From: Escherichia coli
GTDB lineage: Bacteria; Pseudomonadota; Gammaproteobacteria; Enterobacterales; Enterobacteriaceae
Length of the DNA: 64,000 bases
NCBI RefSeq assembly: GCF_016026235.1
Contig: NZ_CP065613.1
Reading direction: 5' to 3' (one strand)
Positions 13,906 through 61,137 of the stretch are shown here, in pieces (position 1 is the first letter of the stretch; every line of letters begins with the position of its first letter). Both the position numbers and the translations under genes were made by a program. Below the pieces are notes generated by a model that was given only the letters and a program-made list of their open reading frames with translations, ran no database searches and was not told the origin of the DNA.

Positions 13906-14019
13906 GGGGGCTCTGTTGGTTCTCCCGCAACGCTACTCTGTTTACCAGGTCAGGTCCGGAAGGAAGCAGCCAAGGCAGATGACGCGTGTGCCGGGATGTA
14001 GCTGGCAGGGCCCCCACCC
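13906..14019 (+). ncRNA. ffs: 4.5S RNA (signal recognition particle RNA)
   Basis: 114 nt GGGGGCUCUGUUGG...GGCAGGGCCCCCACCC read directly; matches the E. coli 4.5S RNA as I recall it. Confidence 0.93.
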
Positions 14020-29549: not shown

Positions 29550-31481
29550 ATGAGTTATCAGGTCTTAGCCCGAAAATGGCGCCCACAAACCTTTGCTGAC
29601 GTCGTCGGCCAGGAACATGTGCTGACCGCACTGGCGAACGGCTTGTCGTTAGGGCGTATTCATCATGCTTATCTTTTTTCCGGCACCCGTGGCGTCGGAA
29701 AAACCTCTATCGCCCGACTGCTGGCGAAGGGGCTAAACTGCGAAACCGGCATTACCGCGACGCCGTGCGGCGTGTGCGATAACTGTCGTGAAATCGAGCA
29801 GGGGCGCTTTGTCGATCTGATTGAAATCGACGCCGCCTCGCGCACCAAAGTTGAAGACACTCGCGACCTGCTGGATAACGTCCAGTACGCTCCGGCGCGT
29901 GGTCGTTTCAAAGTTTATCTGATCGACGAAGTGCATATGCTGTCGCGCCACAGCTTTAACGCATTGTTAAAAACCCTTGAAGAGCCGCCGGAGCACGTTA
30001 AGTTTCTGCTGGCGACGACCGATCCACAGAAATTGCCGGTGACGATTTTGTCACGCTGTCTGCAATTTCATCTCAAGGCGCTGGATGTCGAGCAAATTCG
30101 CCATCAGCTTGAGCACATCCTCAACGAAGAACATATCGCTCACGAGCCGCGGGCGTTGCAATTGCTGGCGCGCGCCGCTGAAGGCAGCCTGCGAGATGCC
30201 TTAAGTCTGACCGACCAGGCGATTGCCAGCGGTGACGGCCAGGTTTCAACCCAGGCGGTCAGTGCGATGCTGGGTACGCTTGACGACGATCAGGCGCTGT
30301 CGCTGGTTGAAGCGATGGTCGAGGCCAACGGCGAGCGCGTAATGGCGCTGATTAATGAAGCCGCTGCCCGTGGTATCGAGTGGGAAGCGTTGCTGGTGGA
30401 AATGCTCGGCCTGTTGCATCGTATTGCGATGGTACAACTTTCGCCTGCTGCACTTGGCAACGACATGGCCGCCATTGAGCTGCGGATGCGTGAACTGGCG
30501 CGCACCATACCGCCGACGGATATTCAGCTTTACTATCAGACGCTGTTGATTGGTCGCAAAGAATTACCGTATGCGCCGGACCGCCGCATGGGCGTTGAGA
30601 TGACGCTGCTGCGCGCGCTGGCGTTCCATCCACGTATGCCTCTGCCTGAGCCAGAAGTGCCACGCCAGTCCTTTGCGCCCGTCGCGCCAACGGCAGTAAT
30701 GACGCCAACCCAGGTGCCGCCGCAACCGCAATCAGCGCCGCAGCAGGCACCGACTGTACCGCTCCCGGAAACCACCAGCCAGGTGCTGGCGGCGCGCCAG
30801 CAGTTGCAGCGCGTGCAGGGAGCAACCAAAGCAAAAAAGAGTGAACCGGCAGCCGCTACCCGCGCGCGGCCGGTGAATAACGCTGCGCTGGAAAGACTGG
30901 CTTCGGTCACCGATCGCGTTCAGGCGCGTCCGGTGCCATCGGCGCTGGAAAAAGCGCCAGCCAAAAAAGAAGCGTATCGCTGGAAGGCTACCACTCCAGT
31001 GATGCAGCAAAAAGAAGTGGTCGCCACGCCGAAGGCGCTGAAAAAAGCGCTGGAACATGAAAAAACGCCGGAACTGGCGGCGAAGCTGGCGGCAGAAGCC
31101 ATTGAGCGCGACGCGTGGGCGGCACAGGTGAGTCAACTTTCGCTACCAAAACTGGTCGAACAGGTGGCCTTAAATGCCTGGAAAGAGGAGAGCGACAACG
31201 CAGTATGTCTGCATTTGCGCTCCTCTCAGCGGCATTTGAACAACCGCGGTGCACAGCAAAAACTGGCTGAAGCGTTGAGCATGTTAAAAGGTTCAACGGT
31301 TGAACTGACTATCGTTGAAGATGATAATCCCGCGGTGCGTACGCCGCTGGAGTGGCGTCAGGCGATATACGAAGAAAAACTTGCGCAGGCGCGCGAGTCC
31401 ATTATTGCGGATAATAATATTCAGACCCTGCGTCGGTTCTTCGATGCGGAGCTGGATGAAGAAAGTATCCGCCCCATTTGA
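29550..31481 (+). CDS. dnaX: DNA polymerase III subunits tau and gamma
   Basis: ORF track 643 aa; Walker A GTRGVGKTS. Confidence 0.97.
   Translation: MSYQVLARKWRPQTFADVVGQEHVLTALANGLSLGRIHHAYLFSGTRGVGKTSIARLLAKGLNCETGITATPCGVCDNCREIEQGRFVDLIEIDAASRTKVEDTRDLLDNVQYAPARGRFKVYLIDEVHMLSRHSFNALLKTLEEPPEHVKFLLATTDPQKLPVTILSRCLQFHLKALDVEQIRHQLEHILNEEHIAHEPRALQLLARAAEGSLRDALSLTDQAIASGDGQVSTQAVSAMLGTLDDDQALSLVEAMVEANGERVMALINEAAARGIEWEALLVEMLGLLHRIAMVQLSPAALGNDMAAIELRMRELARTIPPTDIQLYYQTLLIGRKELPYAPDRRMGVEMTLLRALAFHPRMPLPEPEVPRQSFAPVAPTAVMTPTQVPPQPQSAPQQAPTVPLPETTSQVLAARQQLQRVQGATKAKKSEPAAATRARPVNNAALERLASVTDRVQARPVPSALEKAPAKKEAYRWKATTPVMQQKEVVATPKALKKALEHEKTPELAAKLAAEAIERDAWAAQVSQLSLPKLVEQVALNAWKEESDNAVCLHLRSSQRHLNNRGAQQKLAEALSMLKGSTVELTIVEDDNPAVRTPLEWRQAIYEEKLAQARESIIADNNIQTLRRFFDAELDEESIRPI
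30833..30839 (+). other. dnaX: dnaX programmed -1 ribosomal frameshift heptamer A AAA AAG (yields gamma; -1 frame stops at TGA 30842-30844), followed by GC-rich stem-loop
   Basis: Slippery heptamer and downstream hairpin CCGGCAGCCGCTACCCGCGCGCGGCCGG read directly; mechanism is established for E. coli dnaX. Confidence 0.85.
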
Positions 31482-38900: not shown

Positions 38901-38985
38901 CGTAGGCCAGCTAAGGCGTTCACGCCGCATCTGGCATTTTGCTCTCAATGCCTGATGCGACGCTGGCGCGTCTTATCAGGCCTAC
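38901..38985. repeat. REP elements downstream of gsk
   Basis: GCCTGATGCGACGCTGGCGCGTCTTATCAGGCCTAC type palindromic units. Confidence 0.7.
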
Positions 38986-44022: not shown

Positions 44023-44058
44023 TCCGAAAGTGCCGGATATTTGCATCCGGCACAATGC

Positions 44059-44553
<495 letters not shown>

Positions 44554-44659
44554 TTAAACAAAAAAACGAAGCAAGCATACGCCTGATGGCGGTCCAAAAA
44601 AAAGAGTCATCTTGCCTAAGAGTATTGGCAGGATGGTGAGATTGAGCGACAATCGAGTT

Positions 44660-44743
44660 ACACCGTCGCTTAAAGTGACGGCATAATAATAAAAAAATGA
44701 AATTCCTCTTTGACGGGCCAATAGCGATATTGGCCATTTTTTT
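44660..44743 (+). ncRNA. chiX: ChiX (MicM/SroB) small RNA
   Basis: About 84 nt ACACCGUCGCUUAAAGUGACGGCAUAAUAAUAAAAAAAUGAAAUUCCUCUUUGACGGGCCAAUAGCGAUAUUGGCCAUUUUUUU in the ybaK-ybaP intergenic region, ending in a terminator hairpin plus U-tract; recognised from memory. Confidence 0.88.
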
Positions 44744-45536
44744 AGCGCAACATTTGCGGTAAATTCCCTTCTCCATACAGGTGTAGTGCACCGACCGCGA
44801 CCACATATCGCCCCGGCGGCATGGCGCGTAATTTATCCCGCCAGGTGAGATTTCGCTGATGCATCAGCACATCGTACAGCGACTGACTGAACGTATTGGG
44901 CAGCGTTATTTCATTATTTTGCGGCGGCGCATTCAGCCACCAGCTCATCATTTGTTGCAGCAACCGTGCGTTGGTATGCCAGTGGGTCAGCGTATCGTCC
45001 AGCAGCGCCAGTCCTTTGTCAGGGAGCTGGAGCAACATGGCAATCTGGTTTTCAGCCCCTTCCAGTTCAATCACGGGTTTATGTTGTTGCTTCGCCGCCT
45101 GCAATAGCTGGTAATCGATACCGTATTCTGCCCGCAGCCCCAGTTTTTGCGCCTGCGTCGCCTGAAGAACCATCGCGATTTGCCACAGCGGTTGGGTAGA
45201 AAAGAGTGAGGGAGAAATGCCCATCTCCTGGCTAATGTGCTGCAGATTTTGGAGTTGCTCCTCGCTAATGCGCTCTTCCAGCGCCTCGCAGGCAGGCAAA
45301 TTAGCAAAAGGCGTATCGCTGGTGGAAACATCCGCCTCGACGATCAGCGCATCGGCGTTTTTGAGCTTTTTGAGCAAACGGGTGGGCAGGGGAGCCATAT
45401 CGTGGCTACCCATATGAATACTGCCAATCAGATGAAAATGGCGATTGCCGGGAAGGGTGATATCGATGGCAGGCCAGGTGTAATGATTACCGCGCAGCGC
45501 GGCCCAAAGCGTTTTTACCCGGTACAACAGATCCAT
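44742..45536 (-). CDS. ybaP: TraB-family protein YbaP
   Basis: ORF track 264 aa. Confidence 0.9.
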   Translation of the reverse strand: MDLLYRVKTLWAALRGNHYTWPAIDITLPGNRHFHLIGSIHMGSHDMAPLPTRLLKKLKNADALIVEADVSTSDTPFANLPACEALEERISEEQLQNLQHISQEMGISPSLFSTQPLWQIAMVLQATQAQKLGLRAEYGIDYQLLQAAKQQHKPVIELEGAENQIAMLLQLPDKGLALLDDTLTHWHTNARLLQQMMSWWLNAPPQNNEITLPNTFSQSLYDVLMHQRNLTWRDKLRAMPPGRYVVAVGALHLYGEGNLPQMLR

Positions 45537-45673
45537 ACGACCTCCCTTTGTGAAATATCATGCTAGCGCGCGGTGAGGGATGGCGCAAATGGAGTTGGGG
45601 ACTTGTTTAATGTGTTTGTATGATTCAGTATGTTCTTGTATCGCTATTCACAGGGAAGCAACAGTTAAAAACT

Positions 45674-46015
45674 ATGAAACAGGCAACAAGAAAACCGACG
45701 ACACCCGGAGATATTCTTCTCTATGAATATCTGGAACCGCTCGCTTTGAAAATCAATGAGTTAGCAGAGTTGCTGCATGTTCATCGTAATAGCGTCAGTA
45801 CACTGATCAATAATAATCGTAAACTCACCACTGAAATGGCATTCCGTCTGGCGAAAGTTTTTGATACCACAGTCGATTTTTGGCTAAACCTTCAGGCGGC
45901 AGTTGATCTTTGGGAAGTTGAAAACAACATGCGCACCCAGGAAGAATTGGGACGGATTGAAACAGTGGCTGAATATTTGGCACGCCGTGAAGAGCGTGCA
46001 AAAAAGGTCGCGTAA
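45674..46015 (+). CDS. ybaQ: XRE-family HTH protein YbaQ (HigA-like)
   Basis: 113 aa starting MKQATRKPTTPGDILLYEYLEPL inside ORF 45620..46015. Confidence 0.88.
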   Translation: MKQATRKPTTPGDILLYEYLEPLALKINELAELLHVHRNSVSTLINNNRKLTTEMAFRLAKVFDTTVDFWLNLQAAVDLWEVENNMRTQEELGRIETVAEYLARREERAKKVA

Positions 46016-46037: not shown

Positions 46038-46275
<238 letters not shown>

Positions 46276-60302: not shown

Positions 60303-60602
<300 letters not shown>

Positions 60603-61046: not shown

Positions 61047-61137
61047 TGCTAGATGAGGACTGTTTCATTTCTGCCCGGAACCACCAAGTCTTGGGCGGAA
61101 AAAATAAAAAAACCGACTGTCATGTCGGTTTTTTTAT
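61047..61137 (+). ncRNA. candidate antitoxin sRNA (about 90 nt), divergent from the toxin ORF; its 5' end carries a 16 nt box identical to 60861-60876 and hence complementary to the minus-strand toxin leader
   Basis: Near-consensus sigma70 promoter TTGAAT (61013-18), 17 nt spacer, TATAAT (61036-41); transcript would start about 61044-61048 and end at hairpin AACCGAC-TGTCAT-GTCGGTT plus 7 T (61111-61137). Confidence 0.45.
61111..61137. terminator. bidirectional Rho-independent terminator (A-tract, hairpin, T-tract) shared by selU (minus) and the candidate sRNA (plus)
   Basis: AAAAAAACCGAC TGTCAT GTCGGTTTTTTT read directly. Confidence 0.75.

What the first reader, a model, noticed from the sequence alone, without database searches (positions are those of the whole stretch)
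44660..44743. ChiX sRNA terminator overlaps the stop codon of convergent ybaP
The ChiX 3' hairpin and U-tract extend to 44743 while ybaP (minus strand) ends at 44742-44744, so the sRNA terminator and the ybaP 3' end share sequence. This is a compact convergent arrangement, and the sRNA is invisible to ORF-based annotation.
Basis: partly seen in the sequence, partly recalled or inferred. Interest (0 to 1): 0.3.

Follow-up and report, generated by a model that had tools for sequence, protein, structure and literature searches.

The report
ChiX sRNA gene abutting ybaP
This is the well-known E. coli small regulatory RNA ChiX, whose last two terminator bases are also part of the stop codon of the oppositely oriented gene ybaP; the layout is real, already annotated and experimentally mapped, so it is ordinary.

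Summary
Rfam's sroB/ChiX model matches window 44660-44743 (+) full length at 82.1 bits (threshold 44). The ybaP ORF (44742-45536, minus) ends in a TAA at 44742-44744, so it shares exactly two bases (44742-44743) with ChiX's seven-U tail.

The sequence is identical to E. coli K-12 chiX. The K-12 record annotates the same 2-nt overlap: chiX 507204..507287, ybaP 507286..508080. Published Term-seq places the dominant ChiX 3' end on that last U in three growth conditions and already labels it "primary chiX / antisense ybaP".

ChiX is a trans-acting, Hfq-dependent class II sRNA. Its seed is a perfect 12-nt complement of the chiP ribosome-binding region and of the chbB-chbC decoy.

The 2-nt stop/U-tract overlap occurs in 87 of 116 species-level loci, in 23 of 31 named genera (including Salmonella, Serratia, Yersinia and Pantoea). 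I read this as an ancestral zero-spacer junction held in place because both the stop codon and the U-tail are under selection. I did not find evidence for regulatory coupling. The hairpin is not a bidirectional terminator.

Novelty: already known. Interest: low.

The parts
44625..44653 (+). chiX sigma-70-type promoter: -35 TTGGCA (44625-44630), 17-nt spacer, -10 GACAAT (44648-44653). The annotated +1 is 6 nt downstream.
   Evidence: Promoter scan. TTGGCA-17/18-GACAAT recurs in 53 related loci of Enterobacteriaceae; TTGCCA-18-TACCCT takes its place in Serratia, Yersinia and Rahnella. The region is identical to K-12.
44660..44743 (+). chiX (sroB/MicM/RybC) small RNA, 84 nt
   Evidence: Rfam RF00368, 82.1 bits, full length. 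It corresponds to K-12 chiX 507204..507287 and is 100% identical. Term-seq 3' end at 507287.
44663..44681 (+). 5' stem-loop of ChiX (CCGUCGCU/AGUGACGG)
   Evidence: MFE and centroid fold. A 5' hairpin is predicted in 98 of 107 distinct homologues although the sequence differs almost completely between genera.
44682..44703 (+). A/U-rich single-stranded linker (CAUAAUAAUAAAAAAAUGAAAU) with consecutive A-A/R-N triplets. Presumed Hfq distal-face site of a class II sRNA.
   Evidence: The sequence shows it directly. ChiX is described as a class II sRNA that binds the proximal and distal faces of Hfq (PMC9068810). Binding was not tested here.
44704..44717 (+). Seed region UCCUCUUUGACGGG
   Evidence: ChiX nt 45-56 form a perfect 12-nt complement to CGUCAAAGAGGA at the chiP Shine-Dalgarno region. 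ChiX nt 47-58 form a perfect 12-nt complement to CCCGUCAAAGAG in the chbB-chbC spacer (K-12 targets). AAATTCCTCTTTGAC is invariant by construction in the 120 loci retrieved.
44716..44735 (+). Intrinsic terminator hairpin GGCCAAUA-GCGA-UAUUGGCC
   Evidence: Terminator scan and fold. Present in 107 of 107 distinct homologues, with A-U to G-C compensatory changes and G-U intermediates.
44737..44743 (+). U7 tail of ChiX (terminator U-tract and Hfq proximal-face 3' tail)
   Evidence: Sequence. The Term-seq 3' end is the last U. T-run length is 7 in 85 and 6 in 21 of 119 loci. The ChiX-delta-tail construct (nt 1-79) was used as the tail-less variant in PMC9068810.
44742..44744 (-). ybaP stop codon TAA. 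Bases 44742-44743 are shared with the ChiX U-tail.
   Evidence: ORF list and K-12 annotation. The same TAA/T-tract overlap occurs in 87 of 116 related loci.
44742..45536 (-). ybaP CDS (264 aa, TraB/PrgY/GumN family), convergent with chiX
   Evidence: ORF. Pfam PF01963, 150.5 bits, covering residues 30-264, i.e. up to the last residue. K-12 b0482.
44059..44538 (-). ybaK CDS (Cys-tRNA(Pro) deacylase), divergent from chiX. Its start lies 121 nt upstream of chiX +1.
   Evidence: ORF, Pfam PF04073, K-12 b0481. ybaK lies upstream on the opposite strand in 110 of 121 loci, with a median spacing of 119 nt.
44900..44950 (+). Approximate position (about 44924) of a Rho-dependent termination region for transcripts that read through the ChiX terminator, antisense to ybaP
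   Evidence: Adams et al. 2021 Supplementary file 2 lists K-12 507468 (+), antisense to ybaP, Rho score 3.7, significance 4e-10. I mapped it to the window using the constant offset of 462544. This is literature-derived and was not tested here.

Best explanation
The feature is the chiX gene, an 84-nt, constitutively transcribed, Hfq-dependent class II small RNA.

How it works:
- It is transcribed from its own sigma-70-type promoter, divergently from ybaK.
- It ends at an intrinsic terminator whose U7 tail doubles as the Hfq proximal-face binding site.
- Its single-stranded seed (UCCUCUUUGACGGG) pairs with the ribosome-binding region of the chitoporin mRNA chiP and silences it.
- When chitosugars induce the chb operon, the chbB-chbC spacer pairs with the same seed as a decoy and ChiX is destroyed. 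The chiP 5'-UTR fragment ChiZ also sponges ChiX.

The junction with ybaP:
- The last two U residues are the complement of the AA of ybaP's TAA stop codon.
- I read this 2-nt overlap as an ancestral zero-length intergenic junction. It persists because both partners are separately under purifying selection: the stop codon, and a U-tail long enough for termination and Hfq binding. A junction with no spacer also has no neutral DNA in which indels could accumulate.
- It does not appear to be a device that couples the two genes.
- Transcripts that escape the ChiX terminator run antisense into ybaP and are stopped by Rho about 180 nt further on.

Basis of each step:
- Shown here: identity, coordinates, structure, seed complementarity, conservation of the junction.
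- Taken from the literature: expression, 3' end, Hfq class, target regulation, Rho termination.
- Inferred: that the overlap has no regulatory role.
For: Identity and coordinates:
- Rfam sroB, 82.1 bits, full length, at 44660-44743, and the only hit in the neighbourhood.
- 100% identity to K-12 chiX, with identical annotated geometry.
- The region is present in 5422 of 5426 complete E. coli genomes.

Anatomy:
- Promoter and terminator.
- Fold with a 5' hairpin, an open linker and a terminator hairpin, z = -3.88.

Mechanism:
- Perfect 12-nt complementarity to the chiP SD region and to the chbB-chbC spacer.
- Published compensatory-mutation evidence and ChiZ sponge, as summarised in PMC7815308.
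- Class II Hfq binding (PMC9068810).

3' end:
- Term-seq peak at 507287 in three conditions, with scores of 445279, 552306 and 955394.
- Rho termination region at 507468 (+).

Junction conservation:
- 87 of 116 loci have exactly a 2-nt TAA/T-tract overlap, in 23 of 31 named genera, down to 54% YbaP identity.
- 7 distant genera were confirmed as sroB members at 61-81 bits.
- The YbaP tail after the conserved NLP motif varies from 4 to 8 residues while the stop stays on the T-tract. In-frame indels explain this without special selection.
- The upstream ybaK-chiX spacer varies from 79 to 337 nt.
- Where the A after the T-run is lost, the ORF simply extends 5 codons to a TAA in the hairpin loop (4 loci with a 17-nt overlap). 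This shows the exact position is tolerated rather than required.
Against: - Nothing contradicts the identity.
- The claim that the overlap has no regulatory role rests only on the absence of evidence.
- The 3' end of the ybaP mRNA is unmapped. No minus-strand 3' end between 507000 and 507299 appears in the curated Term-seq lists. Any ybaP 3' UTR would be perfectly complementary to ChiX, so an antisense interaction cannot be excluded.
- 75% retention of the junction across three families is high. I did not model how much retention phylogenetic inertia alone predicts.
- The comparative sample is biased.
- Target pairing was computed with K-12 chiP and chb sequences, because those loci lie outside the window.
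Confidence: 0.88

Rival explanations
1. The overlap is functional. Strong constitutive chiX transcription interferes with convergent ybaP transcription through RNA polymerase collision. Alternatively, or in addition, ybaP mRNA extends past its stop codon, so its 3' UTR is a perfect antisense partner of ChiX and the two RNAs regulate each other, as a cis-encoded sponge or an RNase III substrate.
For: - The junction is retained in 87 of 116 species-level loci across Enterobacteriaceae, Yersiniaceae and Erwiniaceae.
- No U-tract follows the hairpin on the minus strand, so ybaP transcription probably reads into antisense ChiX.
- Read-through from chiX into antisense ybaP exists and needs Rho to stop it.
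- A RIL-seq study had to relabel a feature called ybaP.EST3UTR as ChiX. This at least shows the two features get confused in transcript-level data.
Against: - No minus-strand 3' end or antisense-ChiX transcript is reported in the curated Term-seq lists.
- 20 loci have spacers of 3-230 nt, and in Proteus ybaP is not adjacent at all, yet ChiX is intact there.
- Variants with 1-nt and 17-nt overlaps exist.
- Dual purifying selection on a spacer-less junction explains the retention without any coupling.
- No functional link between YbaP (TraB/GumN family) and chitosugar use is known to me.
Confidence: 0.08
2. The ChiX terminator is a bidirectional intrinsic terminator that also ends ybaP transcription. 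The shared sequence would then be one device serving both genes.
For: - The hairpin is a perfect palindromic stem and forms equally well on the minus-strand RNA.
- It begins 7 nt after the ybaP stop codon.
- Bidirectional terminators between convergent genes are described as widespread in E. coli (bioRxiv 10.1101/2022.10.23.513370, listed).
Against: - On the minus strand the hairpin is followed by CGUCAAAGAGGAAUUUC, not a U-run.
- The terminator scan reports this hairpin only on the + strand.
- That flanking sequence is the ChiX seed and is invariant, so it cannot evolve into a U-tract.
- No minus-strand Term-seq 3' end is listed nearby.
Confidence: 0.03
3. The overlap is only an annotation convention. 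Real ChiX molecules would end upstream of 44742, so no base is shared in vivo.
For: - Intrinsic terminators usually release RNAs with heterogeneous U-tails.
- 3' exonucleases can trim such tails.
Against: Term-seq places the dominant 3' end on the last U (507287 = window 44743) in LB at OD 0.4, LB at OD 2.0 and M63 glucose. At the DNA level the T-tract needed for termination includes those two bases regardless.
Confidence: 0.01

Closest known systems
ChiX (MicM / SroB / RybC), Rfam RF00368, E. coli K-12 b4585
   Same: - 84/84 nt identical.
- Same promoter.
- Same flanking genes (ybaK divergent, ybaP convergent).
- Same 2-nt overlap with the ybaP stop codon.
- Same seed complementarity to chiP and chbBC.
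   Different: Nothing in the sRNA differs. The window comes from a non-K-12 E. coli: there is one synonymous-region SNP in ybaP within the 271 nt compared, and the content near ybbP differs.
Class II Hfq-dependent sRNAs (e.g. ChiX, MgrR, CyaR)
   Same: - An A-rich (ARN-like) linker plus a 3' U-tail after a terminator hairpin.
- This is the layout described for binding the distal and proximal faces of Hfq (PMC9068810).
   Different: Hfq binding of this copy was not measured here. It follows only from sequence identity with the studied RNA.
Bidirectional intrinsic terminators shared by convergent genes
   Same: - Convergent genes with no spacer.
- A single palindromic hairpin sits at the junction.
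   Different: The hairpin has a U-tract on one side only. The other side is the conserved ChiX seed, so the defining two-sided A-tract/U-tract symmetry is absent.
Neighbouring ushA/ybaK junction in the same window
   Same: - A compact convergent pair.
- The ushA Term-seq 3' end (K-12 506602) abuts the ybaK stop codon (506603).
- It is also classed 'primary, antisense'.
   Different: A 36-nt spacer separates the two CDSs, and no base is shared between a U-tract and a stop codon.

Membership tests
Rfam RF00368 sroB / ChiX | Covariance-model score at or above the curated gathering score (44 bits) over the full model | tested here: met
   82.1 bits, model positions 1-83 of 83, E = 1.8e-10. It is the only family at E <= 1 in 44400-45000.
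Rfam RF00368 sroB / ChiX | Genomic context: between ybaK (divergent) and ybaP (convergent) | tested here: met
   ORFs and Pfam assignments. Same order as K-12. Described as ybaK/ybaP-flanked in PMC3384567.
Rfam RF00368 sroB / ChiX | Seed complementary to the chiP (ybfM) ribosome-binding region and to the chbB-chbC decoy | tested here: met
   Perfect 12-nt complements to each target, using K-12 target sequences.
Rfam RF00368 sroB / ChiX | Expressed as a discrete ~84-nt RNA ending at the terminator | not testable with these tools
   No expression data exist for this strain. For the identical K-12 sequence, the Term-seq 3' end is at 507287.
Class II Hfq-dependent sRNA | Rho-independent terminator with a 3' oligo-U tail, plus an internal ARN-type A-rich motif | tested here: met
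   Hairpin plus U7. The linker AAUAAUAAAAAAAUGAAA is single-stranded in the centroid fold.
Class II Hfq-dependent sRNA | Physical binding to the Hfq proximal and distal faces; stability dependent on those faces | not testable with these tools
   Taken from the literature for the identical RNA (PMC9068810).
Bidirectional intrinsic terminator | GC-rich hairpin flanked by an A-tract upstream and a T-tract downstream, so each strand's transcript sees hairpin plus U-run | tested here: not met
   The + strand upstream flank is CTCTTTGACG, so the minus-strand RNA has CGUCAAAGAG after the hairpin. The scan reports this terminator on the + strand only.
cis-antisense RNA of ybaP | Substantial overlap with the opposite-strand transcript, giving an extended duplex | tested here: inconclusive
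   The overlap with the ybaP CDS is only 2 nt. Overlap with a ybaP 3' UTR is possible, but that 3' end is unmapped.

The most novel reading that the evidence does not exclude
The stop-codon/U-tail overlap, retained in about three quarters of sampled Enterobacterales species, is selected because it couples the two genes. ybaP transcripts necessarily run antisense across chiX, because there is no minus-strand terminator. The ybaP 3' UTR would then act as a cis-encoded perfect-match sponge or RNase III partner for ChiX. Conversely, the very strong chiX promoter would throttle ybaP by head-on polymerase collision.
Probability: 0.08. Interest if true: 0.35.

Novelty: already known. Interest (0 to 1): 0.1.

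Why it matters
As a finding it matters little. chiX, its coordinates and its overlap with ybaP are in the curated K-12 annotation and in published 3'-end maps.

The practical points are minor:
- Automated (PGAP-type) annotation of other E. coli genomes can omit the sRNA.
- Anyone deleting chiX or ybaP must keep the shared two bases and the terminator, or the neighbouring gene is damaged.
- Transcript-level pipelines can mislabel ChiX reads as a ybaP 3' UTR.

The comparative result gives a tidy example of a spacer-less convergent junction. The same TAA-in-U-tract arrangement runs from Escherichia to Serratia, Yersinia and Pantoea. In a few lineages the ybaP ORF instead extends into the terminator hairpin. 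This does not open a new question.

Tried and rejected
- **Other RNA families.** I looked for any other RNA family or feature on either strand around the site with a permissive Rfam scan. Only sroB was found.
- **Bidirectional terminator.** Rejected, because the minus-strand flank is the ChiX seed and not a U-run.
- **ybaP 3' end.** I searched the curated Term-seq tables for a minus-strand ybaP 3' end at 5070xx-5072xx. None is listed, so the ybaP terminator remains unknown. A weak minus-strand terminator-like site at 44585-44572 (5-bp stem with a G-U pair, and a 5-nt gap before the U-run) was not pursued. It is weak and sits in the ybaK upstream region.
- **Literature on the junction.** Searches for papers discussing ChiX with ybaP, or with bidirectional terminators, returned only table entries and the RIL-seq relabelling note. 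I did not find any paper that discusses the overlap itself.
- **Duplex prediction.** RNA.duplexfold on full-length ChiX against its targets gave long, partly spurious duplexes with modest z-scores (-2.3 and -3.6). I therefore rely only on the perfect 12-nt cores.
- **Variable YbaP tail as evidence for selection.** I considered whether the variable tail length with a fixed stop position argues for selection on the junction. Rejected, because in-frame indels keep the same stop codon trivially.
- **L060.** This 'Candidatus Lindowbacteria' MAG matched the 19-nt pattern but has no T-tract. I treated it as a chance match.
- **L026.** In Phytobacter massiliensis the ORF runs 87 nt through antisense ChiX. 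This may be a homopolymer-length error and was not followed up.

Full report
**1. What the sequence shows**

On the + strand, 44716-44735 reads GGCCAATAGCGATATTGGCC. This is an 8-bp stem with a 4-nt loop. It is followed by A, then seven T (44737-44743), then A at 44744. The consensus terminator scan reports exactly this hairpin and tail, on the + strand only.

The ORF list gives a 264-aa minus-strand ORF at 44742..45536. Its stop codon occupies 44742-44744: TTA on the + strand, TAA on the minus strand. Two bases, 44742 and 44743, therefore belong both to the T-tract and to the stop codon. The hairpin itself lies just outside the CDS.

**2. Identity of the RNA**

A gathering-threshold Rfam scan of the whole window places RF00368 (sroB, the Rfam name for ChiX/MicM/RybC) at 44660-44743 (+). 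The score is 82.1 bits against a cut-off of 44, E = 1.8e-10, covering model positions 1-83 of 83. A permissive scan of 44400-45000 finds no other family on either strand.

The 84-nt RNA folds into three parts: a 5' hairpin (44663-44681), an open A/U-rich linker, and the terminator hairpin. The energy is -24.1 kcal/mol, z = -3.88.

A sigma-70-type promoter lies 6 nt upstream of 44660: TTGGCA, 17-nt spacer, GACAAT, at 44625-44653.

**3. Comparison with annotation**

The curated K-12 MG1655 record annotates:
- chiX (b4585) at 507204..507287 (+)
- ybaP (b0482) at 507286..508080 (-)
- ybaK at 506603..507082 (-)

This is the same order, the same lengths and the same 2-nt overlap as in the window, at a constant offset of 462544. 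Over 271 nt spanning the ybaK start, chiX and the ybaP end, the window differs from K-12 at one base inside ybaP. It is identical throughout the promoter and sRNA.

The 601-nt neighbourhood is present in 5422 of 5426 complete E. coli genomes at 95% identity or more.

One PGAP-annotated record I inspected lists ybaK and ybaP but no chiX.

Pfam confirms the neighbours:
- YbaP is a TraB/PrgY/GumN protein. The domain match runs to its last residue, so the ORF end is credible.
- YbaK carries the tRNA-editing domain.

**4. Experimental 3' end (literature)**

Adams et al. 2021 (eLife, PMC7815308) list a dominant Term-seq 3' end at 507287 (+) in all three conditions, with very high scores (445279, 552306 and 955394). 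The printed flanking sequence puts the end on the last U of the U7 run. The authors' own classification is "primary: chiX; antisense: ybaP".

The overlap is therefore real at the RNA level and already on record.

The same paper's Rho table lists a Rho termination region at 507468 (+), antisense to ybaP (Rho score 3.7, significance 4e-10). This corresponds to about window 44924. Transcripts that escape the ChiX terminator are stopped by Rho about 180 nt into antisense ybaP.

No minus-strand 3' end between 507000 and 507299 is in the curated lists. Where ybaP mRNA ends is unknown.

In that study 99 Term-seq 3' ends are both "primary" and "antisense" under a +/-50 bp rule. The neighbouring ushA 3' end (506602) abuts the ybaK stop codon. 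Tight convergent junctions are therefore common.

**5. How it works**

ChiX nt 45-56 (UCCUCUUUGACG, window 44704-44715) are a perfect complement of CGUCAAAGAGGA at the chiP Shine-Dalgarno region. ChiX nt 47-58 (CUCUUUGACGGG) are a perfect complement of CCCGUCAAAGAG in the chbB-chbC spacer (targets taken from K-12).

These are the pairings established by compensatory mutations in the work summarised by Adams et al.:
- ChiX silences chiP and promotes Rho termination within chiPQ.
- The chbBC spacer acts as a decoy that leads to ChiX decay.
- The chiP 5' fragment ChiZ is a second sponge.

ChiX is a class II sRNA that binds the proximal and distal faces of Hfq and competes strongly for it. A construct ending at nt 79 served as the tail-less variant in PMC9068810. 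The two bases shared with the ybaP stop codon are thus part of the U-tail, which serves both intrinsic termination and Hfq binding.

Basis of these steps:
- Shown here: sequence, structure and complementarity.
- Taken from the literature for the identical K-12 RNA: expression, Hfq binding and regulation.

**6. Comparative analysis (the only new element)**

Seven distant ones were confirmed as full-length sroB members at 61-81 bits: Serratia, Yersinia, Rahnella, Pantoea, Hafnia, Proteus and Buttiauxella.

Structure conservation:
- All 107 distinct homologues keep the terminator hairpin, with A-U to G-C compensatory changes.
- 98 of 107 keep a 5' hairpin, although its sequence is almost entirely different between genera.

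The promoter is conserved in two forms. TTGGCA-17/18-GACAAT occurs in Enterobacteriaceae, and TTGCCA-18-TACCCT occurs in Serratia, Yersinia and Rahnella.

A YbaP homologue lies convergent and adjacent in 116 loci. The junction is distributed as follows:

| Junction between ybaP stop and T-tract | Loci |
|---|---|
| TAA sharing exactly 2 nt with the T-tract | 87 |
| TGA sharing 1 nt (Pantoea) | 4 |
| A after the T-run lost; ORF extends 5 codons (…QKNGQ) to a TAA in the hairpin loop, a 17-nt overlap (Kosakonia, a Phytobacter, two unnamed Enterobacteriaceae) | 4 |
| ORF runs 87 nt through antisense ChiX | 1 |
| Spacer of 3-230 nt | 20 |

The 2-nt form occurs in 23 of 31 named genera, including Salmonella, Klebsiella, Serratia, Yersinia, Rahnella, Pantoea and Mixta. 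YbaP identity in these loci goes down to 54%. In Proteus ybaP is not adjacent.

The ybaK-chiX spacer, by contrast, varies from 79 to 337 nt.

**7. Interpretation of the conservation**

The simplest account is an ancestral spacer-less junction that is hard to change. Three points support it:
- The stop codon and the U-tail are each under purifying selection.
- There is no neutral DNA between them.
- In-frame indels in the variable YbaP tail (4-8 residues after the conserved NLP motif) leave the stop where it is.

The exceptions show the exact geometry is tolerated rather than required. These are the loci with spacers, the 1-nt and 17-nt overlaps, and Proteus.

I considered a bidirectional terminator and reject it. 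The minus-strand RNA has CGUCAAAGAGGAAUUUC after the hairpin, which is the invariant ChiX seed and not a U-run.

A functional antisense or collision coupling between chiX and ybaP cannot be excluded, because the ybaP 3' end is unmapped. Nothing positive supports it either. The nearest hint is a RIL-seq paper that relabelled "ybaP.EST3UTR" as ChiX, which I cannot interpret further.

**8. Verdict**

The feature is the known chiX gene in its known position, with a known and experimentally mapped 2-nt overlap with ybaP.

- Novelty: already known.
- Interest: low (0.1).
- Most novel reading not excluded: the conserved overlap mediates chiX-ybaP cross-regulation. I put this at about 8% probability, with moderate interest if true.

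Noticed in passing
window 61049-61137 (+), with 60324-60366 (-) and 60370-60548 (+): There is an Rfam AgrB hit (53.6 bits, gathering score 40), next to an ES036 hit and two naRNA4/REP hits. In other E. coli genomes this ybbP-mnmH intergenic stretch is annotated as 'dinQ: damage-inducible type I toxin DinQ'. It looks like a second dinQ/agrB-like type I toxin-antitoxin locus. It is covered at 80% or more in only 1124 of 5426 complete genomes. This also suggests the window is not from K-12, where from memory rhsD follows ybbP (not checked here).
   Followed up: partly
window 44023-44058 (ushA/ybaK junction): ushA (+, ends 44022) and ybaK (-, stop codon 44059-44061) are separated by 36 nt containing the hairpin GTGCCGGATATTTGCATCCGGCAC. 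Term-seq in K-12 puts the ushA 3' end at 506602, directly abutting the ybaK stop codon. This is a second compact convergent junction next door.
   Followed up: partly
window about 44924 (+), inside ybaP antisense: A published Rho-dependent termination region (K-12 507468 +, Rho score 3.7) lies about 180 nt downstream of the ChiX terminator. It implies measurable read-through of ChiX into antisense ybaP.
   Followed up: partly
L041, L048, L094 and one further locus; L026: In a few species (Kosakonia, Phytobacter and unnamed Enterobacteriaceae) the base after the ChiX T-run is G rather than A. The ybaP ORF then continues through the U-tract and the 3' arm of the terminator to a TAA in the hairpin loop, a 17-nt dual-use stretch with tail …QKNGQ. 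In Phytobacter massiliensis (L026) the ORF runs 87 nt through antisense ChiX, which may be a homopolymer-length error.
   Followed up: partly
window 46041-46118 and 46142-46219 (both strands); also 38905-38982: There are tandem REP/BIME-type elements, scored as naRNA4 at 62-87 bits, between ybaQ and copA. A Term-seq 'orphan' 3' end at K-12 508673 falls in this repeat region.
   Followed up: no
window 45620-46015 (+): The ybaQ ORF (HTH_3 domain) is open here from an upstream ATG (131 aa), against the 113 aa annotated in K-12. In E. coli O145 RM9872 the gene is flagged as a pseudogene with an internal stop and named a HigA-family antitoxin.
   Followed up: no
window 30814-30878 (+) and 13914-14010 (+): These are expected housekeeping RNA elements: the dnaX programmed frameshift element (96.8 bits) and 4.5S/SRP RNA (68.1 bits).
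   Followed up: no
window 44585-44572 (-): A weak terminator-like site lies on the minus strand between the chiX promoter and the ybaK start: CAGGCGTATGCTTG followed by CTTCGTTTTTTTG. It could mark where ybaP read-through ends, or it could be chance. No Term-seq 3' end is listed there.
   Followed up: partly
L123 3237-3334 (K-12 708236..708333): The current K-12 record annotates ChiZ (b4808), the chiP 5'-UTR-derived sponge of ChiX, immediately upstream of chiP. It contains the 12-nt ChiX pairing site used.
   Followed up: yes
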